From NCBI GenBank assembly GCA_031425695.1, contig JANPJV010000314.1:2293-66292 (forward strand): a stretch of 64,000 bases of DNA. Reading direction: 5' to 3'. The stretch is from Rhodanobacteraceae bacterium. GTDB taxonomy: Bacteria > Pseudomonadota > Gammaproteobacteria > Xanthomonadales > SZUA-5. Positions 2,858 through 24,017 of this stretch are shown piece by piece (position 1 is the stretch's first letter; every line of letters begins with the position of its first letter). Both the position numbers and the translations under genes were made by a program. The notes beneath the pieces are model-generated. The model was not told the DNA's origin. It was given only the letters and a program-made list of their open reading frames with translations, and searched no databases.

Positions 2858-3727
2858 TCAAAGTACGTAGACGAACACGAACAATCCCAGCCAAACCACG
2901 TCGACGAAGTGCCAGTACCAGGCCACGCCTTCGAAGGCGAAGTGGTGTTCCTTGGTGAAATGGCCCTTGATGCAGCGGAACAGGATCACGATCAGCATGA
3001 TCGTGCCCAGGGTCACGTGCATGCCGTGGAAGCCGGTGAGCATGAAGAAGGTGCTCCCGTAGATGCCGGCGCCCAGCGTCAGGCCGAGTTCGTTGTAGGC
3101 GTGCATGTACTCGATCACCTGCCAGTACAGGAAGATCACGCCGAGGATGATGGTCGCGGCCATCCAGAAAATCAGTGCGCGGCGCTGGCCGAGCTTGAGC
3201 GCCCAGTGCGCGAGCGTGATGGTCAGGCCCGAGGTCAACAGCAACAGCGTGTTGAGCAGCGGAATGCCCCAGGCCGACAAGGTCTGGAAAGCGCCGCCGA
3301 GCTGTCCGGGGCCATTGGTCGGCCACGCAGCGACGAAGCCTGAATGCAGCAACTGGTTGGTCGAGAAGCCGTCGCCGGCGCCACCGAGCCATGGCACCGA
3401 GAGGATCCGCGCGTAGAACAGGGCGCCGAAAAAGGCCGCGAAGAACATCACTTCGGAAAAAATGAACCAGACCATTCCCATGCGGAAGGAAGTGTCGACC
3501 TGGGCGTTGAACATCCCGGCCAGGCTCTCCTTGATCACCGCGCCGAACCAGCCGACCAGCATCACCACCAGCAGGATGAAGCCGGCGATGAACAGCGGGT
3601 TGCCCAAGGCCTTGTTGTCATTGAGCATCGATGCCGCGCCGGCCATGAACAGGAACAGCGCGACTGAACCGACAATCGGCCAGCGGCTGCCGTGCGGTAC
3701 GTAATAAGCGCCAGCGGCTTGTTCCAT
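2858..3727 (-). CDS. coxC: cytochrome c oxidase subunit III
   Basis: 289 aa, about 7 TM helices, with conserved subunit III sequence through the C-terminus (WYWHFVDVVWLGLFVFVYVL). Confidence 0.95.
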   Translation of the reverse strand: MEQAAGAYYVPHGSRWPIVGSVALFLFMAGAASMLNDNKALGNPLFIAGFILLVVMLVGWFGAVIKESLAGMFNAQVDTSFRMGMVWFIFSEVMFFAAFFGALFYARILSVPWLGGAGDGFSTNQLLHSGFVAAWPTNGPGQLGGAFQTLSAWGIPLLNTLLLLTSGLTITLAHWALKLGQRRALIFWMAATIILGVIFLYWQVIEYMHAYNELGLTLGAGIYGSTFFMLTGFHGMHVTLGTIMLIVILFRCIKGHFTKEHHFAFEGVAWYWHFVDVVWLGLFVFVYVL

Positions 3728-3776
3728 AAAAACTTCCTTTGCGAAGGTCGGTCGGGCCGGTCAAGGCCCGGGCACG

Positions 3777-4361
3777 TCAATTGTCGAGATTATCGGCAAG
3801 GCCGGCATGCGATGCCAGCCGCCGCGTCGCCGGATCATTCCGGTAGAAGCTGTAGGACAGGGTGAGCACGTTCACGTTCGCCGGCAGCTCCGGGTCGATG
3901 ACGAAGCGCAGCGGCATGGCGCGCGTTTCGCCCGGGTCGAGCGGCTGTTCGGTGAAGCAGAAACACTCGGTCTTGTTGAAGTACATCGAGGCGCGATTTG
4001 GGGCCACGCTCGGAACTGCCTGGCCGACGATGCGCTCGCTGCTGTTGTTGGTGGCGTCGTAAAAGGCTTCCACGACCTGGCCCGGGTGCACCGTCATCGA
4101 GGACAGCCGCGGCGAGAAGCTCCAGGGCAAGCCCGCACGCACATTGCCGTCGAACTGCACGGTGATGCTGCGGGAGCGATCGATCGCGGTCTCGCGCGCT
4201 GCTGCGGTTGCCTGCGGTCCGGTCTTGCCGTTGATCCCGGTGATCTCGCAATAGATCGAATACAACGGGATCAGCGCGAAACAGAACACGAAGGAGGCCG
4301 CGCACGCGAGCAACACCCGGCGCACCAGCGCCCGGTGCCGCCGTGTCGTGGGCGCGCTCAT
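3777..4361 (-). CDS. ctaG: cytochrome c oxidase assembly protein CtaG/Cox11
   Basis: 194 aa with an N-terminal TM followed by the Cox11 copper-site motif (KTECFCFTEQ). Confidence 0.9.
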   Translation of the reverse strand: MSAPTTRRHRALVRRVLLACAASFVFCFALIPLYSIYCEITGINGKTGPQATAAARETAIDRSRSITVQFDGNVRAGLPWSFSPRLSSMTVHPGQVVEAFYDATNNSSERIVGQAVPSVAPNRASMYFNKTECFCFTEQPLDPGETRAMPLRFVIDPELPANVNVLTLSYSFYRNDPATRRLASHAGLADNLDN

Positions 4362-4498
4362 GACAGCATCCAGGCGCGCACGAAGATCGACGCGTACAGC
4401 ACGACCGCGATCACCACCAACACGGCGACGGTGCGGCGTACCGCCGGCCGGCGTGCCTCGGCAGCGGCTGCTGCCGGGCGATTGGGAGTCGTCGGCAC
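4358..4498 (-). CDS. small single-TM protein (cytochrome oxidase small assembly protein-like)
   Basis: Not in the track (46 aa). GTG 4498 is preceded by GAGG overlapping the coxA stop. Translation: VPTTPNRPAAAAAEARRPAVRRTVAVLVVIAVVLYASIFVRAWMLS. Its TGA overlaps the ctaG ATG (ATGA). Confidence 0.45.
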   Translation of the reverse strand: MPTTPNRPAAAAAEARRPAVRRTVAVLVVIAVVLYASIFVRAWMLS

Positions 4499-4505
4499 GG
4501 TCGCC

Positions 4506-6146
4506 TCAGTGGGTGATGTCGCCATGCGCGAGCATGGAATCGGTCACCTTCGGCGGGATCGAGAAGGTATGGAAGGGCGGCGGCGAAGGCAGCGTCCATT
4601 CCAGGCCATGCGCCCCTTCCCACACGCCCGGCGTGGCGCGCGCGCCTTTCTTCAGCACGCAGGTTTCGATCAGCAGCCAGACGAACAGCAACTGCGACAG
4701 ACCGAAGGCAAAGCCGCCGATGGACGAGATCATGTTGAAGTCGGCGAAGGCGACGTTGTAGTCCGGAATACGGCGCGGCATGCCGGCCAGGCCGAGGAAG
4801 TGCTGCGGGAAGAACAGCACGTTCACCGAGATCGTCGATGCCCAGAAATGCCATTTGCCGAGCGTCTCGTTGTACATGTGGCCGGTCCACTTCGGCAGCC
4901 AGTAATAGACCGCGGCCATGATCGAGAAGATCGCCCCGGTGACCAGCACGTAGTGGAAGTGCGCGACCACGAAGTAGGTGTCGTGATACTGGAAATCCGC
5001 CGGCACGATCGCGAGCATCAGCCCGGAGAAACCGCCCACCGTGAACAGCACCACGAAGGCGACCGCGAACAGCATGGGTGTCTCGAAAGTGATCGAGCCC
5101 TTCCACATGGTCGCCGTCCAGTTGAAGACTTTGACGCCGGTCGGCACCGCGATCAGCATGGTCGCGTACATGAAGAACAGCAGGCCACCGAGCGGCATGC
5201 CGACGGTGAACATGTGGTGCGCCCAGACGATGAATGACAGGAAGGCAATCGAAGCGGTCGCGTAGACCATCGCCTGGTAGCCAAACAGCGGCTTGCGCGA
5301 GAACGTCGGAATGATCTCGGACGCGATGCCGAAAGCCGGCAGGATCATGATGTAGACCTCGGGATGCCCGAAGAACCAGAAGATGTGCTGGAACATCACC
5401 GGATCGCCGCCGCCAGCTGCGTTGAAGAAGCTGGTGTCGAAGAACTTGTCGGTCAGCAGCATGGTCACCGAGCCCGCCAGCACCGGCATCACCGCGATCA
5501 GCAGGAAGGCGGTGATCAGCCACGTCCACACGAAGATCGGCATCTTCAGCAGATCGACGCCGGGCGCACGCAGGTTGAGGATGGTGGCAATGATGTTGAT
5601 CGCACCCATGATCGAGCTGATGCCCATCATGTGGATCGCGAAAATCACGAATGACACGTTGTTGCCGCCTTGGATCGACAGCGGCGGATAGAGCGTCCAG
5701 CCGCCGGCCGGGCCGCCGCCTTCCATGAACAGCGTCATCAGCAGCATGGTGAACGCGAACGGCAGGATCCAGAACGACCAGTTGTTCATGCGTGGCAACG
5801 CCATGTCCGGCGCGCCGATCATCATCGGGATCATCCAGTTGGCGAGGCCGACGAAGGCCGGCATCACCGCCCCGAAGATCATCACCAGCGCATGCATCGT
5901 GGTCATCGAGTTGAAGAACTGCGGCTCGACCAGCTGCAGCCCCGGCTGGAACAGCTCGGCGCGGATGACCAGCGCCATGCAGCCGCCGATCAGGAACATC
6001 ACCAGCGAAAAGATCAGATACAGCGTGCCGATGTCTTTGTGGTTGGTGCCCATGAACCAGCGGTCAAAAAAGCCGCTCGGCGCGTGGTTGTGATCGTCGT
6101 GATGATCGTCTGCGGCGTGGGCGCCGTATGACTGGGTTCCGGCCAT
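4506..6146 (-). CDS. coxA: cytochrome c oxidase subunit I
   Basis: 546 aa with heme-copper oxidase signatures (FWFFGHPEVYIMILPAFG, WAHHMFTVG, HFHYVL). Confidence 0.97.
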   Translation of the reverse strand: MAGTQSYGAHAADDHHDDHNHAPSGFFDRWFMGTNHKDIGTLYLIFSLVMFLIGGCMALVIRAELFQPGLQLVEPQFFNSMTTMHALVMIFGAVMPAFVGLANWMIPMMIGAPDMALPRMNNWSFWILPFAFTMLLMTLFMEGGGPAGGWTLYPPLSIQGGNNVSFVIFAIHMMGISSIMGAINIIATILNLRAPGVDLLKMPIFVWTWLITAFLLIAVMPVLAGSVTMLLTDKFFDTSFFNAAGGGDPVMFQHIFWFFGHPEVYIMILPAFGIASEIIPTFSRKPLFGYQAMVYATASIAFLSFIVWAHHMFTVGMPLGGLLFFMYATMLIAVPTGVKVFNWTATMWKGSITFETPMLFAVAFVVLFTVGGFSGLMLAIVPADFQYHDTYFVVAHFHYVLVTGAIFSIMAAVYYWLPKWTGHMYNETLGKWHFWASTISVNVLFFPQHFLGLAGMPRRIPDYNVAFADFNMISSIGGFAFGLSQLLFVWLLIETCVLKKGARATPGVWEGAHGLEWTLPSPPPFHTFSIPPKVTDSMLAHGDITH

Positions 6147-10738: not shown

Positions 10739-11301
10739 AGCCCGAATTCCTCTTTGAGCTTCGCGCGTTTCACCCTGTAGGTCTCTTCGTCGATGACCTT
10801 CAGGCGTAGATCGTTGGTCAAGTCGGCTTGCCGCTCCTGGAACTTCGCGCGCAGCGCAGCGGCCGCATTGCGGTCGCCGGTGCGCATGGCGGTTTCCATT
10901 TCGCGCTCTGCTTTCGCCGTCCCCTGCGAGGCCTGCGCAGCGACGATCTCGAGGAGGTAGCCGTGGGACTTGAGCGGCATGGCCAGCTTGCCGGCATCCC
11001 GCAACTCGCACATCGACTGCAGCGCGTTAATCCACAAGACCGTCGGCGCCGCGTACTCCTCGCCGCGGCGCAGAACGAACTGGCCAGAGATCTGCGGGAC
11101 GATCGCTGACAACAGGCGCTCGGCACGGTCATTCGAGAGCGCGCGCTTCGCGGGGCGGAACATGCCGATGTAGTGGGCCATGAGCCGGCCCAGCTCACCC
11201 GAGAGCGATAGCGCCTGGTAGAGGGCGCCGCGTCCCGCTGCAAGCTCGATCGCGGCGGCGAGTTCGAACTGGCTCTGGCAGTTTGGGCAGGCGAGCTTCA
11301 T
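10735..11301 (-). CDS. hypothetical early protein with N-terminal zinc-ribbon-like CPNC
   Basis: 188 aa from ATG 11301 (MKLACPNCQSQFELAAA...). ATGA-coupled. Confidence 0.6.
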   Translation of the reverse strand: MKLACPNCQSQFELAAAIELAAGRGALYQALSLSGELGRLMAHYIGMFRPAKRALSNDRAERLLSAIVPQISGQFVLRRGEEYAAPTVLWINALQSMCELRDAGKLAMPLKSHGYLLEIVAAQASQGTAKAEREMETAMRTGDRNAAAALRAKFQERQADLTNDLRLKVIDEETYRVKRAKLKEEFGL

Positions 11302-12161
11302 GCGGGCAGCTCGTCCCACGTGCGGCCATCGAGCAAGCGGCCAGTGGCCTTCTTGCTCTCGCCGCCCCATTGCTTGAAGAAGAACGGGACACGGAACCCA
11401 ATGCACTGCTCGCGCAGGGAGCGAACCCACTCTGGATGCATCGGGCGCGCGCCGCGACCGCTTTCACCGCCGCAGATAACCCAGTCGACGCCGAGCGTCA
11501 TACCCATCACGGCTGCGGCCTGATCACGGTTCAGCGCTGCGGGAGAACTCATGGCCTCCCGGATCGCGTCCCGAACCAGTAGCTTGCATCCGCAGGCACA
11601 AAAGCGATTGAGTTCGATAGCCCCAAGCATCGGCTCGATCGACACAAACCTGCGCGCGGCCTTGGTTCGAAACAGCCAGGGCACGCGCTCGTCATAAGTG
11701 CCCTGATCTTCGGCACTGACTCCCAGGTGCACGTTCGGCAACGGCCAATCGCGGCCCGCTGCGAAGGCGCTGTTGACGTAGTCGTGCATTCGCTTGGCGC
11801 GCTTGGTCAGCACCTGAAACGTGTGCTGCGACGCCGCGGCCATCGTCGCGAAAACCTCGCTGATCCACTCGTCCGGCACCGCCTCATGGAACAGGTCGCC
11901 GTGCGCGCAGACGAAGATCCGCCGCGGCCTCGCCCAGCGCAGCGGCTGAACCATCCACGCCTCATTGCGCCGTACCAGGCCATTCCAAACCGGGCCGGCT
12001 TTGGATGCAACCGTTAGGCCGGCGCGCGACGGGTGGTTGCGCATGCGAGTGCCTGCCAGCTTCATCGCATAACAGTGCTTGCAGCCGGCGCTGATGACGC
12101 TGCAACCGGTGATCGGGTTCCAGGTGGCATCGGTCCATTCGATTGATGAGTGCTCAGCCAC
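11298..12161 (-). CDS. phage Gp37/Gp68 family protein (DUF5131-like)
   Basis: 287 aa from GTG 12161, preceded by GGAAGGGAGGG. N-terminus AEHSSIEWTDATWNPITGCSVISAGCKHCYA is the family signature; the C-terminus carries VPFFFKQWGG. Confidence 0.75.
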   Translation of the reverse strand: MAEHSSIEWTDATWNPITGCSVISAGCKHCYAMKLAGTRMRNHPSRAGLTVASKAGPVWNGLVRRNEAWMVQPLRWARPRRIFVCAHGDLFHEAVPDEWISEVFATMAAASQHTFQVLTKRAKRMHDYVNSAFAAGRDWPLPNVHLGVSAEDQGTYDERVPWLFRTKAARRFVSIEPMLGAIELNRFCACGCKLLVRDAIREAMSSPAALNRDQAAAVMGMTLGVDWVICGGESGRGARPMHPEWVRSLREQCIGFRVPFFFKQWGGESKKATGRLLDGRTWDELPA

Positions 12162-12351
12162 GAGCCCTCCCTTCCAACTTTTCCTTTGCGTCGACCAACG
12201 CGATGTCGAGCAGCTGCGGAAGCCGCTGCTCTTCTGTCCGCGCCCAAGGTTTCGTAATCCACTGTTCCGGCAGAGCGGTCTGGCTGGCTTTGGAAACCGC
12301 CTTGCCGTTGACCAAGACTTCAACCGTTACCCGAACCTGCAGAAGACTCAT
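12154..12351 (-). CDS. hypothetical small early protein
   Basis: 65 aa, with an ATGA overlap upstream and an 8-nt overlap downstream. Confidence 0.5.
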   Translation of the reverse strand: MSLLQVRVTVEVLVNGKAVSKASQTALPEQWITKPWARTEEQRLPQLLDIALVDAKEKLEGRARG

Positions 12352-12699: not shown

Positions 12700-13926
12700 T
12701 CAGACCTCCCGCACCAGCTGCGCGCTGATCTTGTCGAAACCAAGCTCGACGGCCTGGTTCAATGCCCGCACGAGCGCGTTGTTGACGTTCAGCGGGTAGC
12801 TGTGGTCCTCCGGGATGTTGCTGCCCTGCCGCGACAACAACAGGCGCTGCCGAAGGGCCTGCAGTGCATCCTTCTCGAAAAGCTTCTCGATGGCGTCTTT
12901 CCCGAGCACGCGAACGAGCTTGTGCTCGACGTAGCCGGCCAGGTCATCACCGAGTGGTCGAAGCGTCGCCACTTCGCAGCGCCGGATGAACTCGCGGATC
13001 TTCGAGTTCTTGCGCTCGTCCAGGATCAACTTCAGCTCGGGCTGGCCGATCAGGATGATGCCGAGCAGCTTGCGGAAGCCGTCCTCCAGCTCCCAGAAGC
13101 GCTTGAGGTAGCGGAGCATGTCCATCGACAGGTCGTGCGCTTCTTCGATCAGCAGCACGTGCGTATTGCCTGCGGCTGCGCTCTCCGCCAGCACACGCTC
13201 GACCTGCCGTGCCAAGCCCTCAAGATCAGATTTCGGGGTTTCCGAGCTGACGTCTGCGAGGACCGCCTGGCAGACGTGATTGGCGGTCAGCTTCCGCTTG
13301 TCCGTGCACTTCACCTTGATGACGGTGATTCGCTCTTCGCTGCGCGCCAGGCGCTCGATCAGGTTGCGTTTCAGTGTCGACTTTCCGGCGCCGCTCTCGC
13401 CGATCACCGCGAGCAGCCCGTTGTGTTTGGCCGCGTAGTACATCGCCTCGCCCACGAAGCGCATGTCGCGGCTGATGAAGACGTCCCGGCCGCAGGTGAT
13501 GTCGTTGTTGCCGAACGGGTTCTGGTGCAGGTTGAAATGACGGCGAGCGGCCTCTGAAAGCATTTCGGACTCCGGGACGGTTTGGCTGAAGGTTGGTGCA
13601 GCTTTCTCGCGGCTCGCCGGCCGGCTTTCTTCCGGGGGACGGGAGTCCGAGGTGGCGACCTCGGGCTCCCAGAGTCCATCGACGCTCTGCCCGGTTGCGG
13701 CGACGGCACGCTCGATTCTTTTTCTGATCTCCTCCGTGTCGTAGCCGACTGGCCAGATGCCGTGGTTGCACAGGTAGTGCAGCGTGGTGCGGCTGATCCG
13801 ATTGCCGAGCCGGCCGTGTTTGATATCGGCCAGCTCGGCCGCGAGATGGGCTGTCGAGATCCGGCCGCGCCGCATGGCGCTCTTGAGCCCGATGGCCGGG
13901 TTCATGGCGTGGTCGGGGTTTCTCAT
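12700..13926 (-). CDS. transposition ATPase B (MuB-like, ExeA-type AAA+)
   Basis: 408 aa: N-terminal HTH-like region, Walker A GESGAGKST and Walker B HVLLIEEAH. Lies downstream of transposase A. Confidence 0.85.
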   Translation of the reverse strand: MRNPDHAMNPAIGLKSAMRRGRISTAHLAAELADIKHGRLGNRISRTTLHYLCNHGIWPVGYDTEEIRKRIERAVAATGQSVDGLWEPEVATSDSRPPEESRPASREKAAPTFSQTVPESEMLSEAARRHFNLHQNPFGNNDITCGRDVFISRDMRFVGEAMYYAAKHNGLLAVIGESGAGKSTLKRNLIERLARSEERITVIKVKCTDKRKLTANHVCQAVLADVSSETPKSDLEGLARQVERVLAESAAAGNTHVLLIEEAHDLSMDMLRYLKRFWELEDGFRKLLGIILIGQPELKLILDERKNSKIREFIRRCEVATLRPLGDDLAGYVEHKLVRVLGKDAIEKLFEKDALQALRQRLLLSRQGSNIPEDHSYPLNVNNALVRALNQAVELGFDKISAQLVREV

Positions 13927-17575: not shown

Positions 17576-18042
17576 CGGAAGGTCCCGCCCCCGCACAGCG
17601 TGGCCGCGTCGGCGTAGTCCAGGCGCACTGGCCGGAACTCCTTCCAGGACGCAGCTGCCGGCGTGTAGCGGATGACGCTGGTGTAGAGCAACGGGCCGGC
17701 AAAGTCGCACACGGCAAAGGGGCTGAGCTCACCCCAGGGCGAGGGCGCGGTCGGCGGTCCGCCCAGTTCAGCACCGGCGCGCGACAGCGGGATCGGCACG
17801 CCATAGATCAAAGGCGTTTCTGCCGAGACTCCGGCGCTGCCGAAGGTGCACAGGGCGACCACAGCGGCTTCGCCTCCGGACTTGGTGATGCGCAGGCTGC
17901 AGCGATCACCTTCTGCTGTCTGCCACGCGCCCGACCAGAGCGAGGTGAGCGGCACATCCTTTGCGGCGACGGGCGAGGCGCAGGCAAACGTGAGGCACAG
18001 CATTGCGACGAACGCCACAGCGTGGCGAAGCGACCTATTCAT
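17572..18042 (-). CDS. secreted protein with signal peptide, unknown function
   Basis: 156 aa from ATG 18042. MNRSLRHAVAFVAMLCLTFACASPVAAKD is a signal peptide, followed by a Cys-containing mature domain. Confidence 0.6.
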   Translation of the reverse strand: MNRSLRHAVAFVAMLCLTFACASPVAAKDVPLTSLWSGAWQTAEGDRCSLRITKSGGEAAVVALCTFGSAGVSAETPLIYGVPIPLSRAGAELGGPPTAPSPWGELSPFAVCDFAGPLLYTSVIRYTPAAASWKEFRPVRLDYADAATLCGGGTFR

Positions 18043-18625
18043 GGACGGGCTCCAGGGGAAGTTCAGGGGTGGCGTAGCGCTCGACTTCGCAGCGTTCCGC
18101 CGCGAGGCGTTCGAGGGCAACGGTGATGGCGGCGTGGGTGTCGGCGGCGGCGGCACGGCCGTCGTAGAACTGCAGGAGCGCACCCACAGCCGCGGTGCAC
18201 GCTTCCTGCAAGGCATGGATGTCGCTGGGACGCGCGCGGCGCCCTGACGGCAGATCGACCAGCAACTGGTGCGCGCTGGCTGCGATGTAACGGGTGACGT
18301 AGGTGCAGCCACAGGCGTGCTCGTAAGGCCGAATCATTCGGGCCGGGATCGAGCCCTCGTTGATCCACTTGTAAATGACCCAGTGGCTGGGCAAGCCCAT
18401 CAGGTCGGCGATGCGTTCAACGCTGAGGTTCCGGGTGTCCAGCGCGAACTTGAGGCACAGCTCCATCGCGGCTGGCAAAGAGTTCGCGCGCTCGGCTTTC
18501 CAATTTCGGCGCAGCTTTGGAGCGGCCTTTTTCTTGGCCTCTCCAATCGCGGCTGGTTTCTGCCCTTGCGAACTAAGTTCGCCAGGGCCGAAACTCTCGC
18601 CACCTTTGAGCGGGCGAGACGTCAT
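18035..18625 (-). CDS. putative HTH regulatory protein
   Basis: 196 aa with a basic N-terminus and the HTH-like LSVERIADLMGLPSHWVIYKWINEG. Confidence 0.65.
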   Translation of the reverse strand: MTSRPLKGGESFGPGELSSQGQKPAAIGEAKKKAAPKLRRNWKAERANSLPAAMELCLKFALDTRNLSVERIADLMGLPSHWVIYKWINEGSIPARMIRPYEHACGCTYVTRYIAASAHQLLVDLPSGRRARPSDIHALQEACTAAVGALLQFYDGRAAAADTHAAITVALERLAAERCEVERYATPELPLEPVHE

Positions 18626-19270: not shown

Positions 19271-19564
19271 TCAGGCGGCTTTCGCCGCAAGGCGGGCTTC
19301 GAGGGCTTTCACGCGAGCGGAAAGCTCTGCAACGTTCAGTGGGCGCTTGCGGCGCCGGGCTTCTGGGCCGTGCCAATGCGGCCAGATTTCAGCCAGGCTG
19401 AGCCCGAGGAGAGTGGCGATCTTTTCCTCGATCTGACGGCTCCGACCCACGCTATGGATGACCGCACTCACCGTCTGGCGGTGTGCGACTTGGCACATTC
19501 GTGCGACATCGGCCTGGGTCAGACCGGCGCGTTCCAGCGCGTACTTAATGTCTATCGGGCTCAT
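19271..19564 (-). CDS. ner: Ner-family DNA-binding protein (first gene of the leftward early operon)
   Basis: 97 aa. DIKYALERAGLTQADVARMCQVAHRQTVSAVIHSVGRSRQIEEKIATLLGLSLAEIWPHWH matches the Mu Ner pattern (the ..IWPSRY-type ending). Confidence 0.75.
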   Translation of the reverse strand: MSPIDIKYALERAGLTQADVARMCQVAHRQTVSAVIHSVGRSRQIEEKIATLLGLSLAEIWPHWHGPEARRRKRPLNVAELSARVKALEARLAAKAA

Positions 19565-19655: not shown

Positions 19656-20078
19656 ATGCACCCCGCTGACATTGCGGCCGCGCTAAAGAGGAAGAAGGTC
19701 ACTCAGGCCGAGGTTGCGGCGGCCTGCGGGGTGGTTCGCGGCGTCGCCAACGCAGTGGTACGGGGCGTTGGGCGGTCGAAGAAAGTCGAGGCCGAAATCT
19801 CGAACGTGACCGGCATACCACTCGAAGAGCTATGGCCGCAGTGGTATCCACCCGCCTCGGCCAAGGGCAATACCGTGTCTGTGCGAGGGGATCGCAACGT
19901 TACTGCTGGAGGCAAAATCGGCCATGTGGTTGATCCACAAACCAGAGACGCGTTCGCGCTATTCGTTTCGGGGCTAACACCCACCGAAGAGCGCTTGATC
20001 AGGCTCTATCGGGCGCTTGAGCCTGGGCAGCAAGAAGAAGTTGAACAGTTCATGCGGAAGAAACTCGCAGGCAACTAA
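19656..20078 (+). CDS. Ner-family HTH protein with C-terminal extension (candidate lysogeny repressor)
   Basis: 140 aa. The N-terminus HPADIAAALKRKKVTQAEVAAACGVVRGVANAVVRGVGRSKKVEAEISNVTGIPLEELWPQWY is paralogous to the ner-like gene on the opposite strand. An extra ~75-aa C-terminal domain follows. Confidence 0.7.
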   Translation: MHPADIAAALKRKKVTQAEVAAACGVVRGVANAVVRGVGRSKKVEAEISNVTGIPLEELWPQWYPPASAKGNTVSVRGDRNVTAGGKIGHVVDPQTRDAFALFVSGLTPTEERLIRLYRALEPGQQEEVEQFMRKKLAGN

Positions 20079-20095
20079 CCAACCTTGGAGTCGTT

Positions 20096-20485
20096 ATGTC
20101 AGCCAAGTACAAGCCGTTTGACCACATCGTTCATCCGCAATTTGTGCCTGGCTGGGTCGGCATGGCTGGATTCGTAAGCGGCATCCTCGCCTTGATTGGT
20201 GCCCTCGGCGTGGTCGCTGGTGGCATCCTGATGCTGGTCGCCTTTTCTACCGATCCGGGCACGACGTTCAGCCCGAAGCCGCCACCAGTCTTGTCGGCGA
20301 TGGGCGCCACCTATCTCATCGGCATGTCGCTTTCGATCTTCGCGCTGGCGTCGATCGTTGACAACCTCGCCGCATGCCGACTGCACCTGCTGGAGCTGGT
20401 CACATTGAAGGCTGTGGAGCAGGGAGTGCCACCGAATGTCGAGCCCGATGTGCAGACCTACGTGGGTCCGAGCACTGGTGCATAG
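20096..20485 (+). CDS. membrane protein (2 TM), accessory operon gene 1
   Basis: 129 aa with GGAG 8 nt upstream, starting 18 nt after the repressor-like gene. TM helices GMAGFVSGILALIGALGVVAGGILMLVAF and ATYLIGMSLSIFALASIV. Confidence 0.65.
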   Translation: MSAKYKPFDHIVHPQFVPGWVGMAGFVSGILALIGALGVVAGGILMLVAFSTDPGTTFSPKPPPVLSAMGATYLIGMSLSIFALASIVDNLAACRLHLLELVTLKAVEQGVPPNVEPDVQTYVGPSTGA

Positions 20486-20663
20486 AGGGGTGCGCCGCCC
20501 GGCACAGCTTTGCCACATCGAAACCCCCGTGGCCGGGCCTCTTGCGAGATCGATGCTTCCGGGCGGCGCAGGGTCATTCTCAGCCCGTGAGACTGACCCT
20601 GTCTATCAGTGAACAGCGCGAGCTGGCGTAGGAAATTTCCGACAACCCAACCCGAGGAACTCC

Positions 20664-21035
20664 ATGAACATCGACGTCATTGGAAACGGCAACAACACCG
20701 CTGGACGCGACCTGACGATCGTCCACATCACCCGCGACAATCTCAAGCTCTCCTGGGAAGCCCGCGTCACCGAGCACCTGCGCCCGCTCCAAATGCCGAT
20801 GCTGCTGTCGCTCCTCGGCCTTGTGTCCTGGGGCGCGGCCATGATGGGCGCGAACTACCTTGCAACCTACTACCGGGTGATGCCGCTTTTCGAGGATGCC
20901 GCTGTCGCCATCTATGGCATTGCCGGGTTCGGCTTTACCGCGTTTGCGATGTACACGCGGCGCAGGGCGGAGAAGGCATGCAGTGATGCGGGCGGCATCG
21001 CGCCAGGTGGGACATTTGGCGCCTCGGCGACATAA
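20664..21035 (+). CDS. membrane protein (2 TM) with N-terminal IDVIGNGNNTAGRDL motif, accessory gene 2
   Basis: 123 aa with a GAGGAA Shine-Dalgarno. The N-terminal motif is shared with ORF 22677 and with the repressor C-terminal domain. Confidence 0.65.
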   Translation: MNIDVIGNGNNTAGRDLTIVHITRDNLKLSWEARVTEHLRPLQMPMLLSLLGLVSWGAAMMGANYLATYYRVMPLFEDAAVAIYGIAGFGFTAFAMYTRRRAEKACSDAGGIAPGGTFGASAT

Positions 21036-21068
21036 CGTCAGGTTCAACCAACACCTACAGGGGGTGTC

Positions 21069-21953
21069 ATGCGACAGATCACAGCTAGCGTAGTGAACAT
21101 CGATGCCCATCCGCACGAGCCAGGCACCTATGGGTCCCTGATGAAGCAGCTCGTTGGCAGGAAGGTAGCTTATCGCGCGGAACGCTCGATGGTCGTGCGA
21201 GGCTTCGATGGCGATGGTCAGATACGCGGCGGAACTATTGTCACGTTCACCGACTTCGACCCAGACGCGCCCTGGTTCGACCCTGAGCTGCTAGACACTG
21301 CGGACGTCCGCGCGACCGAGGCCGCAAGAGCGGCGGTTCAGAAGATCAAGCCTTCCATGCAGGTTTTTCGCGCTGCGCTTGCCGAGATGAACGGCAGCAT
21401 TCACTGCCTCGTAGTCGAGACCAAGAATGAAGAGGGTGAATCGCTTTCGATCTCGCTCGTAGCTGAAGCGCTACGAAAGCTTGCCCTTGGCGTTTTGGGA
21501 GATGCCCCCAAAATGACCGTGAGCTTTTCTGTCCTGTCCAGCAACGACGAGGTGGAAAGACTGCTTTCAAAGCCGAACATTCAGCGCCTGCACGTCATTG
21601 TCTCGATGCCGAACATCGATGATGGGGAGGCCGAGGACAATGCTGTTCAGGAGGAATTGGAAAGGCTTGGCGCGACAAAAGAGGAACGAATCTTGACCGC
21701 CCCCGTCGCAAAGACCGGCGGCATCAAACCAGACGAAGAGTTGAAGAGGCTCGCGCGAGTTGCTTCGCGGCATGGCCGAGTAGAGGTCACCCACGGTTCA
21801 CGCGGCAAGACGAGAATTGAATCGACGTCCGACAAGCCTATTGTCGAGACGGCCAAGCCACATGATAAGGAGCCCTACTCCAGCGCCTTTAAGGGCTTGA
21901 TCAAGCAGTTCATCACTAGGCTCGCGATAGGAAAGAAGTTGGATAGCCAATGA
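21069..21953 (+). CDS. soluble 294-aa protein of unknown function, accessory gene 3
   Basis: AGGGGG Shine-Dalgarno and no TM segments. ATGA overlap with the following membrane protein. GC is visibly lower than in the phage core genes. Confidence 0.7.
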   Translation: MRQITASVVNIDAHPHEPGTYGSLMKQLVGRKVAYRAERSMVVRGFDGDGQIRGGTIVTFTDFDPDAPWFDPELLDTADVRATEAARAAVQKIKPSMQVFRAALAEMNGSIHCLVVETKNEEGESLSISLVAEALRKLALGVLGDAPKMTVSFSVLSSNDEVERLLSKPNIQRLHVIVSMPNIDDGEAEDNAVQEELERLGATKEERILTAPVAKTGGIKPDEELKRLARVASRHGRVEVTHGSRGKTRIESTSDKPIVETAKPHDKEPYSSAFKGLIKQFITRLAIGKKLDSQ

Positions 21954-22606
21954 GCGACAACGGCACCATTGACGTACTCAAGGTTGTTTGGGATATCTCT
22001 GGCGGGTGGCGGCGTATCTCACGCGCTTGGTACACCTGGGCGGCCCTGCTGATCAGCGTTCTCTGTTGGTCTCTCTGGTGGGACGCTGCCTGGTGGGATC
22101 TGTCGCTAGAGATCATCCCTGGAATGCTCGGTTTTTCGCTTGCCGGGTTTGCAATGATGTTGGCGTTTGGAGACGACCGATTCCGTGCCGTCCTTTCAAG
22201 GGCAATGGTGGTGACAGGCGGGGAAGGTACGTCCAAACATTCGGCCTTCATGGGATACGCAAGCATCTTTGTGCACTACTTGGTGGCACAGGTCCTCGGT
22301 CTCTTGCTTGCGATAATCGCCAAGGCCGAGCTGGGAATTCTCCCGCTCGTTGGTGGTACCGGGATATTTCGTTTCGCCATCGGCATTTGTCACTTCGTCG
22401 GTTTCTTCTTCGTCGTGTATTCGATTCTCATGGCCCTCGCAGCAACCCTCGCGGTTTTTCGCATGGCGCGAACCGCCGACAAAATCCAGCGGCTCCCGCC
22501 GCCCAAGCCTGATGCTGTGTCGCCAGAGGGCGAAATGTCCCATCCCGCTTCAGGACCTGTTGTCCCCGCGTCAGCTGCATTAACCCCGCCTGTCACCCGC
22601 GCATAG
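21950..22606 (+). CDS. polytopic membrane protein (about 5 TM), accessory gene 4
   Basis: 218 aa. TM helices include WAALLISVLCWSLWW, IIPGMLGFSLAGFAMMLAF, IFVHYLVAQVLGLLLAIIA and FAIGICHFVGFFFVVYSILMALAATLAVF. Pro-rich C-terminal tail. Confidence 0.7.
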   Translation: MSDNGTIDVLKVVWDISGGWRRISRAWYTWAALLISVLCWSLWWDAAWWDLSLEIIPGMLGFSLAGFAMMLAFGDDRFRAVLSRAMVVTGGEGTSKHSAFMGYASIFVHYLVAQVLGLLLAIIAKAELGILPLVGGTGIFRFAIGICHFVGFFFVVYSILMALAATLAVFRMARTADKIQRLPPPKPDAVSPEGEMSHPASGPVVPASAALTPPVTRA

Positions 22607-22676
22607 TCCCAGAGTCGCCTGGGAATTGCCTTCTCCCCTGGTTGCCATACTCGACTATGGCCGGGGGCGACCAAGC

Positions 22677-22835
22677 ATGAGCGACATTGATATCGAGGGC
22701 AGCAGTAACGCAACTTCTGGGCGCGACCTGGTCGTGGTGGTGATCCATCTGCACTTGAACATCGGCAGCGTCCAGCAGCTGGTGATGACGAATGCTCCGG
22801 CGCCGGAGCCCAAGAAAGCCGAGCCCCCGAAATAG
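22677..22835 (+). CDS. 52-aa protein with IDIEGSSNATSGRDL motif, accessory gene 5
   Basis: ATG 22677 inside track ORF 22626..22835. Sequence: MSDIDIEGSSNATSGRDLVVVVIHLHLNIGSVQQLVMTNAPAPEPKKAEPPK. Confidence 0.45.
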   Translation: MSDIDIEGSSNATSGRDLVVVVIHLHLNIGSVQQLVMTNAPAPEPKKAEPPK

Positions 22836-22914: not shown

Positions 22915-23253
22915 GTGATGGAAACGGAGCGCACCACGGGGCCGGTCGAAGGGCCTATTCCGATGTCGCCGACAGAGGCGACGATCCACGAATTCGCTAC
23001 CGGCTGGCCGGTGCTCGTGCTGTTTCTGCTGTGCCTGATCGTGGTCTGGTGGATCGCGCCGGAGCGCGCGGCCATTGCGATCTGGATCCTCTGCCGCCTG
23101 GCGCTCGGCGCGTTTGCCGGGAACCTTTTCGGCGGCCTTCTTATCCCGATTGGTGACCCGCAGCAGCTTACCGGCCTCGCGCGCGGCAACGCGATCAACG
23201 CGCGAGCGGTCTGCATCGGCTTCGGCATGCTGGCCGCAGGCTGGACTCTGTGA
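22915..23253 (+). CDS. holin-like membrane protein
   Basis: 112 aa with 2-3 TM helices (WPVLVLFLLCLIVVWWI, AIAIWILCRLALGAFAG, AVCIGFGMLAAGW). GTGA overlap with the endolysin start. Confidence 0.6.
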   Translation: MMETERTTGPVEGPIPMSPTEATIHEFATGWPVLVLFLLCLIVVWWIAPERAAIAIWILCRLALGAFAGNLFGGLLIPIGDPQQLTGLARGNAINARAVCIGFGMLAAGWTL

Positions 23254-24017
23254 AGCTGCTAGGTCTCCTGGCGCTCTGCACGCTGCTGTTTCGGCTCAGC
23301 ATCGATCACTGGCCGCGGCTGCGCGACTGGTCTCTCCGCGAGGAGAGCGACGAGATTCTGAACATCGCCTACTGGTGCGACTTCGCCGTGGTGCTGATCC
23401 TGGCGATGATGGTGATCGCGAGCAGTCCCGCCGAGGCCGCCCCAGGTGCGGGCGCGACGCCTCACATTCCCGTGCGCGCGGACGGCTATTCCAAGCTGCT
23501 CGAGCGGGAAGCGGTCGGGCGCTTCGGCCTCAATGCGCCGGTCGCGTTGCTGGCGGCGCAGCTCCATCAGGAGTCGGGCTGGCGCACTGATGCGCAGTCG
23601 CCATACGCGCAAGGCCTCGCGCAGTTCACGCCAGCGACCGCGAAATGGATTCCCGAGGTGTGTGCTGACTTGGGTACACCTAACGTCTGGGACGCGCGCT
23701 GGTCGATCCGTGCGCAAGCCTGCTACATGCGGCACCTGCATGCACAGGTGGCCGACGCGGCGACGCCGTGCGACCGCTGGGCGATGGCGCTCTCCGCGTA
23801 CAACGGTGGCTTGGGGTGGCTCAATCGAGACCGGAAACTGGCGTCGGCTAACGGGGCTGATCGTGCCGTGTGGTTCTCGAATGTCGAGCTTCACTCCAAG
23901 CGCGCGGCGTGGGCCATCGCAGAGAACCGCGGTTATCCACGCCGCATCTTGACCACCCTCGAACCCACCTATCTGGCGGCCGGGTGGCCGGGGAGTCGCA
24001 CGTGCCCGGCTCTGTGA
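23250..24017 (+). CDS. lytic transglycosylase-type endolysin (SLT domain) with N-terminal hydrophobic segments
   Basis: 255 aa with the SLT catalytic region LLAAQLHQESGWRTDAQSPYAQGLAQFTPATAKW and ALSAYNGGLGW. N-terminal TM/signal-anchor-like helices. Confidence 0.8.
   Translation: MKLLGLLALCTLLFRLSIDHWPRLRDWSLREESDEILNIAYWCDFAVVLILAMMVIASSPAEAAPGAGATPHIPVRADGYSKLLEREAVGRFGLNAPVALLAAQLHQESGWRTDAQSPYAQGLAQFTPATAKWIPEVCADLGTPNVWDARWSIRAQACYMRHLHAQVADAATPCDRWAMALSAYNGGLGWLNRDRKLASANGADRAVWFSNVELHSKRAAWAIAENRGYPRRILTTLEPTYLAAGWPGSRTCPAL

What the first reader, a model, noticed from the sequence alone, without database searches (positions are those of the whole stretch)
19875..22742. A ~19-aa Gly/Asn/Thr motif is shared by the repressor-like protein and two accessory proteins
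Aligned by eye:
- Repressor-like protein, residues 74-92: VSVRGDRNVTAGGKIGHVV.
- 123-aa membrane protein, residues 3-21: IDVIGNGNNTAGRDLTIVH.
- 52-aa protein, residues 4-22: IDIEGSSNATSGRDLVVVV.

The two accessory proteins share 10 of 19 identities. All three share the pattern h-x-h-x-G-x-x-N-x-T-(A/S)-G-x-x-h-x-x-V. Three copies of one short module in a single operon, on a DNA-binding protein, a membrane protein and a mini-protein, suggest a common interaction or oligomerisation tag. Such a tag could couple the switch to the membrane components.
Basis: seen in the sequence. Interest (0 to 1): 0.6.

Follow-up and report, generated by a model that had tools for sequence, protein, structure and literature searches.

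The report
Shared motif couples repressor, membrane proteins
A 15-19-residue sequence really is shared by a prophage repressor-like protein and two small membrane proteins, and the same pairing of repressor tail with the start of a membrane protein recurs in dozens of other phages, which points to an apparently undescribed link between a phage's genetic switch and the cell membrane.

Summary
B (123 aa) and C (52 aa) are significantly alike (BLASTP E=5e-6). The copy in A (the repressor-like protein) looked like chance when tested against B and C alone. It became significant only after I found the wider family.

Degenerate DNA patterns for the motif recovered 30 viral and about 25 genomic loci. 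In 32 of 33 evaluable cases, an HTH repressor ending in VxVxGxGN(R/V)TAGRD(Y/F/L) is followed directly by a gene whose product starts with the same motif and ends in transmembrane helices. Examples include phage B3 ORF18/ORF20 and an E. coli P2-like phage. Profiles built only from those outside sequences rank A and B first and second in the whole window (E about 1e-4).

Motifs from the same phage resemble each other more than motifs from different phages. Repressor homologues without the motif also lack the partner. A fused form appears to exist. The motif also sits on TIR, Lamassu-CTD12 and actinobacterial gene pairs, and its AG(R/G)D core resembles the amyloid-signalling motif BASS1.

Best reading: a self-pairing beta-hairpin tag that couples the immunity repressor to membrane proteins co-expressed in the lysogen. 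Here these proteins flank a DUF4747/membrane-protein pair. Physical interaction is inferred, not shown. I found no description of this module in the literature I could search.

The parts
19656..20078 (+). A: 140-aa repressor-like protein. It has a Ner-type HTH (residues 1-68), then the motif, then a helix LTPTEERLIRLYRALEPGQQ. It is the first gene of the rightward operon and diverges from the ner-like early operon. This is the same position as phage B3 ORF18 / Fc02 RepC.
   Evidence: Pfam HTH_35, 36.1 bits (cut-off 25). phrog_769 transcriptional repressor. Synteny with B3. Outside repressor-family HMM E=1.2e-5, with three matched stretches: HTH, motif and helix.
19875..19931 (+). Motif copy in A: VSVRGDRNVTAGGKIGHVV. 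It is internal and has the AGG variant.
   Evidence: Outside motif profile 16.3 bits, E=3e-4, rank 2 in the window. Close to the internal copy GVAVEGDRNRTAGGDYHE in the Pseudomonas carbonaria HTH protein of L064.
20096..20485 (+). 129-aa protein with two hydrophobic segments and no motif. It lies between A and B.
   Evidence: No family hits.
20569..20601 (.). Inverted repeat (14-nt arms, 5-nt loop) in the 178-nt gap before B. It may be a transcript boundary or a regulatory hairpin.
   Evidence: repeat I18. Not called as a terminator (no T-run).
20664..21035 (+). B: 123-aa partner-type protein. The motif is at residues 3-21. Two hydrophobic helices follow, and then a basic tail (TRRRAEK).
   Evidence: AlphaFold2 without an alignment (pLDDT 62.6) gives a hairpin, strands 4-10 and 16-21, then helices 24-69 and 75-110. 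Same layout as B3 ORF20 and the 160-aa partners in L003 and L018.
20670..20726 (+). Motif copy in B: IDVIGNGNNTAGRDLTIVH.
   Evidence: Outside motif profile 18.9 bits, E=5e-5, rank 1 in the window.
21069..21953 (+). 294-aa DUF4747 protein. Published work links this family to RexA-type exclusion proteins. It sits between the two motif-bearing membrane proteins.
   Evidence: Pfam PF15931, E=5e-28. phrog_10040. Literature: PMC6426606, PMC7542560.
21950..22606 (+). 218-aa multi-pass membrane protein. Its start overlaps the DUF4747 stop by 4 nt.
   Evidence: phrog_20580, E=2e-29. Three to five hydrophobic segments.
22677..22835 (+). C: 52-aa mini-protein. The motif is at residues 4-22, running into a hydrophobic stretch (18-36), followed by a charged Pro/Lys tail.
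   Evidence: Called as a gene in a public assembly. BLASTP to B E=5e-6. Outside repressor-family HMM 9.0 bits, rank 4. A 55-aa counterpart lies after the repressor of Escherichia phage 520873.
22686..22742 (+). Motif copy in C: IDIEGSSNATSGRDLVVVV.
19271..19564 (-). Divergent 97-aa Ner-like gene that heads the early (transposition) operon. It defines the switch region together with A.
   Evidence: Pfam HTH_35. Synteny with B3 ORF17 and BcepMu gp16.
22915..24017 (+). Start of the lysis cassette downstream: a 112-aa two-TM holin-like protein and an SLT endolysin. B3 and BcepMu have the same order.
   Evidence: Pfam SLT, E=6e-12..

Best explanation
The window holds a B3/BcepMu-like transposable prophage.

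The motif has the consensus [IV]x[IV]xGxxN(R/V)(T/V)AG(R/G)D[YFLIV] and probably forms a beta-hairpin. It is a self-recognising pairing tag. One copy sits on the immunity-repressor-like protein A, on a flexible region after its DNA-binding domain. Further copies sit at the cytoplasmic N-termini of the membrane proteins B and C. I infer that motif-to-motif beta pairing joins the repressor to these membrane proteins.

The most likely use is as an accessory, lysogen-expressed module. In this model the repressor's state (free, DNA-bound or clustered) controls small membrane effectors, giving superinfection exclusion or abortive infection. B and C flank a DUF4747/membrane-protein pair, a family the literature links to RexA/RexB-type exclusion. 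The reverse direction is a close second: the membrane partner titrates or sequesters the repressor and so tunes induction.

Shown: the motif, its recurrence on these two partner types, co-variation within pairs, and joint presence or absence. Inferred: physical pairing and the biological output.
For: 1. Recurrence. Pattern scans found 30 viral loci, all true hits, plus genomic loci. In 32 of 33 evaluable cases an HTH repressor ending in the motif is followed by a gene starting with it, with a gap of 0-40 nt or an overlap. That gene ends in one or two TM helices. The partner copies mostly read NRVAGRD, which the search pattern (it required T) could not have selected.
2. Named phages. B3 ORF18 ends ...GGISVTGDGNRTAGRDFHERKE and ORF20 starts VNIEVTGSNNIVAGRDF, with two predicted TM helices. 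An E. coli P2-like phage has the same pair. BcepMu gp17/gp18 share a different variant, VGQA[VI], at the same positions.
3. Co-variation. For 22 non-redundant pairs, same-phage pairs score 51.3 against 46.4 +/- 1.15 for shuffled pairs (1 of 20000). At variable positions the scores are 11.8 against 6.1 (0 of 20000). Only 37% of identical residues use the same codon, so gene conversion is not the cause.
4. Joint loss. The JBD25 repressor homologue has no motif and no partner.
5. Fusion. phrog_17822 is matched at profile positions 7-98 by the BcepMu repressor's HTH and at 112-264 by a separate motif-bearing protein.
6. Window proteins. A and B rank first and second against outside profiles. B's motif is modelled as a hairpin. 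Basic residues flank B's hydrophobic helices, which places its N-terminus in the cytoplasm.
7. Defence contexts elsewhere. The motif occurs with TIR_2 and with Lamassu CTD12. In Actinobacteria, 5 of 5 pairs have a C-terminal copy followed by an N-terminal copy in the next gene.
8. Expression. In beetrevirus Fc02 the repressor at this position is experimentally proven. It is co-transcribed in the lysogen with a downstream accessory gene of unknown function (PMC9936078).
Against: - No interaction was tested.
- The AlphaFold2 model of A is uninformative (pLDDT about 30 over the motif) and that of B is only moderate.
- A departs from the family layout. It has a Ner-type rather than XRE-type HTH, the motif is internal rather than at the C-terminus, and it reads AGGK rather than AGRD. 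B is not adjacent to A: a 129-aa gene and a hairpin intervene.
- C scores weakly against outside profiles.
- Co-variation rests on perhaps 4-5 independent lineages.
- I could not check whether Fc02 RepC and e4 carry the motif, because the phage is not in the collection.
- The direction of signalling and the phenotype are guesses.
Confidence: 0.6

Rival explanations
1. Amyloid-type (prion-like) signalling. In this reading the motif is a bacterial amyloid signalling sequence. Clustering of one carrier nucleates a cross-beta fold that templates the motif on the other carriers. This switches the membrane proteins on (cell death or exclusion), or irreversibly inactivates the repressor. It is a specific form of the best explanation rather than a contradiction of it.
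For: - The short motif is rich in G, N and V, is shared by products of neighbouring genes, and is 40-70% identical within pairs. These are the properties reported for BASS motifs.
- BASS1 reads ASGSGRVYQAGRDQHI on one side and YQAGGDQYI on the other. It shares the G...AG(R/G)D.(H/Y) skeleton, including the R/G alternation seen in A.
- A BASS1 HMM scores 13 of 73 motif instances above 4 bits, against 3 of 730 shuffles.
- The motif occurs on TIR, Lamassu-CTD12 and actinobacterial gene pairs.
- Precedent: the Bab/Agp pair in an E. coli prophage island.
Against: - The conserved core is only 15-17 residues, against about 25 for BASS.
- It has one residue fewer than BASS1 between the glycines and AGRD.
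- BASS1 HMM scores stay at or below 11 bits, and one shuffle reached 12.3.
- No Bell or NLR domains are present.
- A constitutively expressed repressor carrying a prion-prone tail would be risky for the lysogen.
- No fibril data exist.
Confidence: 0.22
2. The motif is a common handle for a third party rather than a self-pairing tag. Candidates are a host protease or adaptor (as ClpXP acts on the Mu repressor tail; from general knowledge), a chaperone, or a membrane-insertion factor. Repressor and membrane proteins would then share a fate, or compete for the factor.
For: - The motif lies at exposed termini, after a Lys/Ser/Gly-rich linker.
- Its core (GN.TAGRD) is strongly conserved across hosts from Pseudomonas to E. 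coli.
- A decoy or competition logic would also explain joint presence and absence.
Against: - Same-phage pairs co-vary at variable positions. A shared host factor would not impose that.
- BcepMu uses a different shared sequence in the same two places.
- The motif occurs in phyla with very different proteases.
- The apparent fused form suggests the two carriers act together.
Confidence: 0.12
3. Only B and C are related, as small paralogous membrane proteins of the lysis or accessory region. The match in A is chance, and nothing couples A to them.
For: A is not significant against B and C alone. A has a different HTH type and motif position from the family.
Against: - Outside profiles rank A second or first in the whole window, at E=3e-4 and 1.2e-5.
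- A occupies the position of the motif-bearing repressor in B3.
- A also has the family's helix, (L/I)xxYRAL.
- The AGG and internal variants occur in undoubted family members, L054 and L064.
Confidence: 0.05
4. The similarity is compositional noise, or the by-product of a DNA-level repeat such as an operator or a transposase-binding site.
For: The segment is rich in Gly, Asn and Thr. The naive database searches found nothing.
Against: - None of 5000 shuffles reached the B-C score.
- Synonymous sites differ between copies.
- No DNA repeat family covers the three sites.
- Dozens of independent loci show the same protein-level pattern.
Confidence: 0.01

Closest known systems
Phage B3 ORF18/ORF20 (also Ps59), and beetrevirus Fc02 RepC with its downstream accessory gene e4
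   Same: The genome position and order match: ner-like early operon on one strand, then repressor, partner, holin, SLT endolysin and Rz on the other. The B3 repressor's tail and the start of ORF20 carry the motif. Fc02 RepC is a proven immunity repressor, co-transcribed with e4 in the lysogen.
   Different: In the window the repressor-like protein has a Ner-type HTH with the motif in the middle. There are two motif-bearing membrane proteins rather than one. They are separated from A and from each other by extra genes. None of the papers I could read mentions the shared motif. Whether Fc02's genes carry it could not be checked.
Bacterial amyloid signalling sequences: BASS1 of Streptomyces Bell/NLR pairs, and BASS11 of E. 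coli Bab/Agp
   Same: In both, a short beta-prone motif rich in G and N is shared by products of adjacent genes, with pairs about 50% identical and a membrane-acting protein as one carrier. The AG(R/G)D core is shared with BASS1.
   Different: The carriers here are an HTH repressor (C-terminal or internal copy) and TM proteins (N-terminal copy), not a Bell effector and an NLR or TGP sensor. The core is shorter. The BASS1 profile match is weak. Amyloid formation is untested.
Lambda cI-rexA-rexB and the actinophage CarolAnn gp45-44-43 / Sbash gp30-31 exclusion modules
   Same: A repressor gene is followed by a cytoplasmic DUF4747-type protein and a multi-pass membrane protein, expressed from the prophage.
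   Different: Lambda RexA hits Pfam RexA, not DUF4747, in my scan, and shows no BLASTP similarity to the window protein. The 218-aa protein is not RexB-like by sequence. Lambda's RexA and RexB showed no local similarity to the window's proteins, and I did not look for such a motif in the CarolAnn or Sbash systems.
Membrane sequestration of transcription factors by anti-sigma-type tail- or N-in-anchored proteins (general knowledge, not tested here)
   Same: A cytoplasmic N-terminal binding element on a membrane-anchored protein is encoded next to the regulator it would bind.
   Different: There the two partners have different, complementary folds. Here both carry the same short motif.

Membership tests
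Phage repressor-tail / membrane-partner shared-motif module (B3 ORF18-ORF20 type; defined here) | An HTH DNA-binding protein at the head of the operon, divergent from the ner-like early operon | tested here: met
   A hits HTH_35 at 36.1 bits. Synteny with B3 and BcepMu.
Phage repressor-tail / membrane-partner shared-motif module (B3 ORF18-ORF20 type; defined here) | The segment matches the motif profile built from other phages | tested here: met
   B scores 18.9 bits (E=5e-5) and A 16.3 bits (E=3e-4); the next hit scores 6.4 bits. C scores only 1.6-9.0 bits but matches B at E=5e-6.
Phage repressor-tail / membrane-partner shared-motif module (B3 ORF18-ORF20 type; defined here) | The motif lies at the extreme C-terminus of an XRE-type repressor, after the helix DEQLLLxxYRxL | tested here: not met
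   In A the motif is internal (residues 74-92 of 140) and the YRAL helix follows it. The HTH is Ner-type. A is therefore a permuted variant.
Phage repressor-tail / membrane-partner shared-motif module (B3 ORF18-ORF20 type; defined here) | The next gene's product starts with the motif and ends in TM helices | tested here: inconclusive
   B starts with the motif and has two hydrophobic helices. It lies 585 nt downstream of A, after a 129-aa gene. C lies about 2.6 kb downstream of A.
BASS amyloid signalling motifs (BASS1) | A short motif shared by products of neighbouring genes | tested here: met
BASS amyloid signalling motifs (BASS1) | Carried at the C-terminus of a Bell-type effector and the N-terminus of an NLR | tested here: not met
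   No Bell, NACHT or NB-ARC hits in A, B, C or their counterparts.
BASS amyloid signalling motifs (BASS1) | Matches the BASS1 sequence profile | tested here: inconclusive
   An HMM from 29 published BASS1 motifs gives B 9.3 bits, with a best score of 11 bits. It is enriched over shuffles (13/73 against 3/730 above 4 bits), but one shuffle reached 12.3.
BASS amyloid signalling motifs (BASS1) | Forms cross-beta fibrils and templates its partner | not testable with these tools
   Needs peptide fibril assays or foci assays.
RexA/RexB-type exclusion pair (for the genes between B and C) | A cytoplasmic protein of the RexA/DUF4747 kind | tested here: inconclusive
   DUF4747 E=5e-28. Lambda RexA does not hit DUF4747 at E<=1, and BLASTP is negative. 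The link is from published HHpred results.
RexA/RexB-type exclusion pair (for the genes between B and C) | An adjacent multi-pass membrane protein of the RexB family | tested here: not met
   The 218-aa protein has three to five hydrophobic segments. It has no RexB Pfam hit and no similarity to lambda RexB.

The most novel reading that the evidence does not exclude
The motif is an amyloid-type signalling element, a short relative of BASS1. In this reading many temperate phages (B3-like, BcepMu-like and P2-like) have hung it on their immunity repressor and on small membrane proteins. A self-propagating cross-beta conversion, rather than proteolysis, would then link repressor state to membrane permeabilisation or to repressor inactivation. 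That would be a prion-like layer in the lysis-lysogeny or exclusion decision. The same element would serve as a portable adaptor for TIR, Lamassu and actinobacterial conflict systems.
Probability: 0.22. Interest if true: 0.92.

Novelty: new variant of a known kind. Interest (0 to 1): 0.74.

Why it matters
Mu-like and many P2-like repressors lack the RecA-dependent self-cleavage domain. How their activity is tied to cell state is poorly understood.

A conserved tag that joins the repressor to membrane proteins expressed in the lysogen gives a concrete, testable route for induction control, or for repressor-triggered exclusion. The tag is present in B3 and in an E. coli phage, and so in tractable systems.

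The result also widens the principle of a short motif shared by adjacent genes. So far that principle is known from Bell/NLR and Bab/Agp amyloid signalling. Here it extends to transcription factors and transmembrane proteins, and it adds a motif family seen from Proteobacteria to Actinobacteria and Bacillus.

It also shows that standard homology searches miss such modules entirely.

Tried and rejected
Searches that led nowhere:
- Word-indexed protein searches with B, C and a B+C alignment returned only the query proteins. All operon proteins are singletons at 90% identity.
- Exhaustive HMMER of a B+C motif profile against 1.84 billion proteins gave only B, C and three unrelated repeat proteins: Kazal-like and low-complexity.
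- tblastn of A, B, C, the DUF4747 protein and the 218-aa protein against 50,697 phage records found nothing real.
- The search for related loci with the DUF4747 protein found nothing in viral or genome contigs.
- Pfam, NCBIfam, PHROGs and PADLOC have no model for the motif, for B or for C.
- Literature searches for the motif strings, and for amyloid combined with prophage repressor, found nothing.

Ideas tested and rejected:
- An HMM from B and C alone does not detect A. On that evidence I first judged A to be chance. Outside profiles reversed this.
- DNA-level repeat or gene conversion: rejected, because synonymous sites differ.
- Membership of BASS1: not established.
- A direct RexA relationship for the DUF4747 protein could not be reproduced by hmmscan or BLASTP.
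- My guess that the actinobacterial ~350-aa carriers are nucleotide cyclases got no Pfam support.

Uninformative:
- The AlphaFold2 model of A, run without an alignment (pLDDT 46.8).

Full report
**1. What is at the coordinates**

The window is GC-rich (about 64%) and carries a transposable, Mu-like prophage.

- On the minus strand lie a 97-aa Ner-like gene (19271-19564), a CII-like gene (18035-18625), a MuB-like AAA protein (12700-13926) and further early genes.
- On the plus strand, starting 91 nt from the Ner-like gene, lie in order:
  - A (19656-20078), a 140-aa protein with an HTH_35 domain at residues 1-68;
  - a 129-aa membrane protein;
  - B (20664-21035), 123 aa;
  - a DUF4747 protein (21069-21953);
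  - a 218-aa multi-pass membrane protein (21950-22606);
  - C (22677-22835), 52 aa;
  - a holin-like protein, an SLT endolysin, terminase, portal and capsid genes.

The three quoted peptides are exactly at 19875-19931, 20670-20726 and 22686-22742.

**2. Is the similarity more than chance?**

B and C: yes. BLASTP gives 11/21 identities and E=5e-6, and no shuffle in 5000 reaches the observed score.

A against B and C alone: no.
- BLASTP finds nothing.
- An HMM built from B and C gives A 1.1 bits.
- The sum-of-pairs score of 52 is the best of 112,003 six-frame positions, but the next scores are 48, 42 and 40.

At that stage the fair verdict was that B and C are paralogous and A is probably chance.

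The copies differ at synonymous sites. No DNA repeat links them. The signal is therefore at the protein level.

**3. Standard searches fail**

All operon proteins are singletons at 90% identity. These searches found only the query proteins or unrelated repeat proteins:
- three word-indexed searches;
- an exhaustive HMMER search of 1.84 billion representatives;
- tblastn against phage genomes;
- relative-locus searches.

No Pfam, NCBIfam, PHROG or PADLOC model covers the motif.

**4. The family appears with degenerate DNA patterns**

I back-translated D-[VI]-x-G-x-x-N-x-T-[AS]-G-R-D and scanned viral contigs. This gave one locus, L003. There, an XRE-type HTH protein ends ...GGVSVKGSGHRVAGRDYNEGK. 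The next gene starts MRSSMSSIDVEGDKNRTAGRDYYE and has two TM helices.

A second pattern, [IVM]x[IVM]xGxxNxTAGRD, gave 30 viral loci where about 3 were expected by chance. All are true hits.
- Each has an HTH protein of about 140-160 aa. Its consensus runs: HTH, then LPADEQLLLESYRALSAAKKKALLASLLTGG, then a Lys/Ser/Gly linker, then GGVVVTGSGNRTAGRDYHEKE and the stop.
- The next gene lies on the same strand and is almost always abutting or overlapping. Its product begins xIxVxGxxNRVAGRD(Y/F/L)IE.
- The partner copies mostly have V where the pattern demanded T, so the search did not select them.

Counting all fetched loci, 36 repressors carry the motif.
- 29 have a partner by a strict regular expression.
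- Three more have diverged partners: IEVDDEQNRVAGRDY, and MGVSVEGEGNRTAG(K/E).
- Three contigs end too soon to judge.
- One has none.

That makes 32 of 33 evaluable.

Partners differ in body but not in plan. The motif comes first and the membrane anchor last. Three body types occur:
- about 160 aa with two TM helices and an amphipathic tail;
- about 200-250 aa, helical, with one C-terminal TM;
- about 115-125 aa with a CxxC...CxxC zinc ribbon and a TM.

Some loci (L018, L077, L064) have three adjacent motif genes, as the window does.

**5. Named phages**

The repressor family occurs in 95 phage records from Burkholderia, Ralstonia, Pseudomonas and E. coli.

- Phage B3. ORF18 is annotated "similar to P22 c2 repressor" and ends ...SSGGISVTGDGNRTAGRDFHERKE. 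ORF20 starts VNIEVTGSNNIVAGRDFIENHL and has two TM helices. B3's gene order is the window's order: transposase, CII-like and Ner-like genes on one strand; repressor, partner, holin, SLT and Rz on the other.
- Beetrevirus Fc02. The gene at this position, repc, is a proven immunity repressor (a temperature-sensitive mutant exists). In the lysogen it is transcribed together with a downstream accessory gene, e4, of unknown function that is absent from some relatives (PMC9936078). I could not check whether Fc02's genes carry the motif.
- BcepMu. The repressor gp17 ends ...EQVFHGSVGQAVKVEGN... and the membrane protein gp18 begins ...KQEFNKPVGQAIQAGEAN... This is a different shared sequence in the same two places. 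gp18 also has a SVAGRDIVNV copy.
- Escherichia phage 520873 (P2-like). The repressor next to cox ends ...ELNISGGNNRIAGRDYNETKGR. An unannotated 55-aa ORF follows: MAVNSNGSNNRVAGRDFHEK... with a hydrophobic tail. This is a mini-protein like C.
- JBD25. The repressor homologue has no motif and is followed by a lipoprotein without one.

**6. Re-testing A, B and C with independent profiles**

Motif HMMs built only from the outside sequences, searched against the six-frame translation of the whole window, rank B first (18.9 bits, E=5e-5) and A second (16.3 bits, E=3e-4). The best noise hit scores 6.4 bits. The profile made from partner copies alone gives A 13.9 bits (E=0.002).

A full-length profile of the outside repressors ranks the window's fragments as follows:
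- A first, E=1.2e-5, matching three stretches: the HTH, the motif (KGNTVSVRGDRNVTAGG aligned to SSGGVVVTGSGNRTAGR) and weakly the helix (LTPTEERLIRLYRALEPGQQ aligned to LPADEQLLLESYRALSAAKK);
- B second, E=2.5e-4;
- the other Ner-like protein third, through its HTH;
- C fourth, 9.0 bits.

So A is a member, but a permuted one. It has a Ner-type HTH, the motif comes before the helix rather than after it, and it reads AGGK instead of AGRD. AGG and internal copies do occur in clear members (L054; L064 has GVAVEGDRNRTAGGDYHE internally). C is the most diverged copy and joins the family through B.

**7. Evidence that the two copies recognise each other**

- Among 22 non-redundant pairs, motifs from the same phage are more alike than shuffled pairings: 51.3 against 46.4 +/- 1.15 (1 of 20000). 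At variable positions alone the scores are 11.8 against 6.1 (0 of 20000).
- Examples: AGRDL pairs with AGRDL, GNVTAGRDVN with GNVTAGRDVN, and BcepMu's VGQA with VGQA. If the two copies evolved independently along one phage tree, no such excess would be expected. The number of independent events is perhaps four or five.
- Identical residues share a codon in only 37% of cases (91 of 243), so recent gene conversion is not the cause.
- phrog_17822 is matched at profile positions 7-98 by the BcepMu repressor's HTH, and at 112-264 by a separate motif-bearing protein of L018. This suggests single-chain versions exist.
- AlphaFold2 models B's motif as a hairpin (strands 4-10 and 16-21) at modest confidence, followed by two long helices. 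Basic residues on both sides of the helices place B's N-terminus in the cytoplasm, where A is.
- The model of A is too poor to use.

**8. The motif beyond phage repressors**

The same pattern in 185,579 genomes gave 49 loci. About half are chance. The rest include prophage pairs in Pseudomonas, Thauera, Serratia, Marinobacter, Comamonas and Microbulbifer. Other carriers found:
- a Bacillus subtilis protein with the motif at its N-terminus and the CTD12 domain of ABC-3C (Lamassu) systems (E=9e-28);
- a TIR_2 protein (E=6e-27) with the motif after the TIR domain;
- Streptomyces pairs of a roughly 72-aa protein and a TM protein;
- five of five Actinobacterial loci in which a roughly 350-aa protein carries the motif near its C-terminus, and the overlapping next gene (about 700 aa) carries a variant near its N-terminus.

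This layout of a C-terminal copy, an N-terminal copy and adjacent genes is the signature described for bacterial amyloid signalling sequences. Published BASS1 pairs read RARASGSARIYQAGRDQHITER and MEGRASGSARIYQAGGDQYIEE. They share G...AG(R/G)D.(H/Y) with the present motif but have one extra residue before AGRD. A BASS1 HMM detects the present motif only weakly: at most 11 bits, though enriched over shuffles. I treat this as a resemblance, not membership.

**9. The genes between B and C**

The 294-aa protein is a full-length DUF4747 member (E=5e-28). It is translationally coupled to the 218-aa membrane protein by a 4-nt overlap.

Published work links DUF4747 by HHpred to lambda RexA and to the prophage defence proteins CarolAnn gp44 and Sbash gp30. 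Each of these is paired with a four-pass membrane protein and, in lambda and CarolAnn, co-expressed with the repressor.

I could not reproduce a direct RexA link. Lambda RexA hits Pfam RexA only, and BLASTP is negative. The layout is RexAB-like, but membership is unproven.

**10. Mechanism**

Best supported: the motif is a self-pairing beta tag that joins the repressor to membrane proteins made from the same lysogenic transcript.

Because motif and partner come and go together and are dispensable in relatives, the module looks like an accessory. The motif's other carriers are defence proteins, and here it brackets a DUF4747/membrane-protein pair that resembles an exclusion module only by layout and by the published DUF4747 link. 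I therefore favour repressor-controlled membrane effectors (exclusion or abortive infection). Membrane titration of the repressor, tuning induction, is the main alternative.

An amyloid-templating version is possible (about 0.2). A shared third-party handle is less likely because of the co-variation.

No paper in the searchable library describes the shared motif.

Noticed in passing
window 21069-22606: A DUF4747 protein and a translationally coupled 218-aa multi-pass membrane protein (phrog_10040 and phrog_20580) lie downstream of the repressor-like gene, in a lambda cI-rexA-rexB-like layout. PADLOC has no model for them. Neither has a close relative in the phage, viral or genome collections.
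   Followed up: partly
window 20569-20601: A near-perfect inverted repeat (14-nt arms, 5-nt loop) lies in the 178-nt gap between the 129-aa gene and B. A weak minus-strand promoter-like site overlaps it. It could split the 'operon' into two transcripts.
   Followed up: no
window 19271-19564 (-) and 19656-20078 (+): Two divergent Ner-type (HTH_35) genes face each other across only 91 nt. In B3 and BcepMu the rightward gene is XRE-type instead. The repressor position has therefore been refilled with a different HTH class that still carries the motif and the YRAL helix, in swapped order.
   Followed up: partly
L083 (BcepMu) 3531-4726: The C-terminus of BcepMu gp17 and the N-terminus of gp18 share a different short sequence, F..(.)VGQA[VI]...G..N. 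gp18 also carries an AGRD-type copy. This suggests several motif 'alleles' are used in the same two positions.
   Followed up: partly
phrog_17822 (matches in L083:3531-3947 and L018:9311-9859): One PHROG profile of 267 positions is matched in its first third by a repressor HTH and in its last 150 positions by a separate motif-bearing protein. This suggests fused single-chain versions of the pair exist.
   Followed up: partly
L039:219-806 (Bacillus subtilis) and L060:6138-7544 (Sedimentisphaerales MAG): [quoted passage not shown] It also occurs directly after a TIR domain. This fits a portable adaptor in defence systems.
   Followed up: partly
L036, L037, L045, L061, L069 (Amycolatopsis, Saccharopolyspora, Saccharomonospora): A conserved gene pair. 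A roughly 350-aa protein ends in the motif plus a QEFSGxFxTxGDSNFGPxSGRR tail. It overlaps by 4 nt a roughly 700-aa protein with a motif variant near residue 45-60. Neither protein has a Pfam or NCBIfam hit.
   Followed up: partly
L085:1912-2079 (Escherichia phage 520873): An unannotated 55-aa ORF lies directly after the P2-type repressor. It starts with the motif. A 115-aa ORF further on ends in a TM helix and may be the rest of a disrupted partner gene.
   Followed up: no
L010:2784-3386 and relatives (phrog_5825): The roughly 200-aa tail-anchored partner type has a weak NCBIfam match (E=2.5e-6, far below cut-off) to Flk. Flk is a tail-anchored regulator of FlgM secretion in Salmonella.
   Followed up: no
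window 11298-12323 (-): A DUF5131 protein (E=2.5e-88) lies in the early region of the prophage, next to the MuB-like AAA gene.
   Followed up: no
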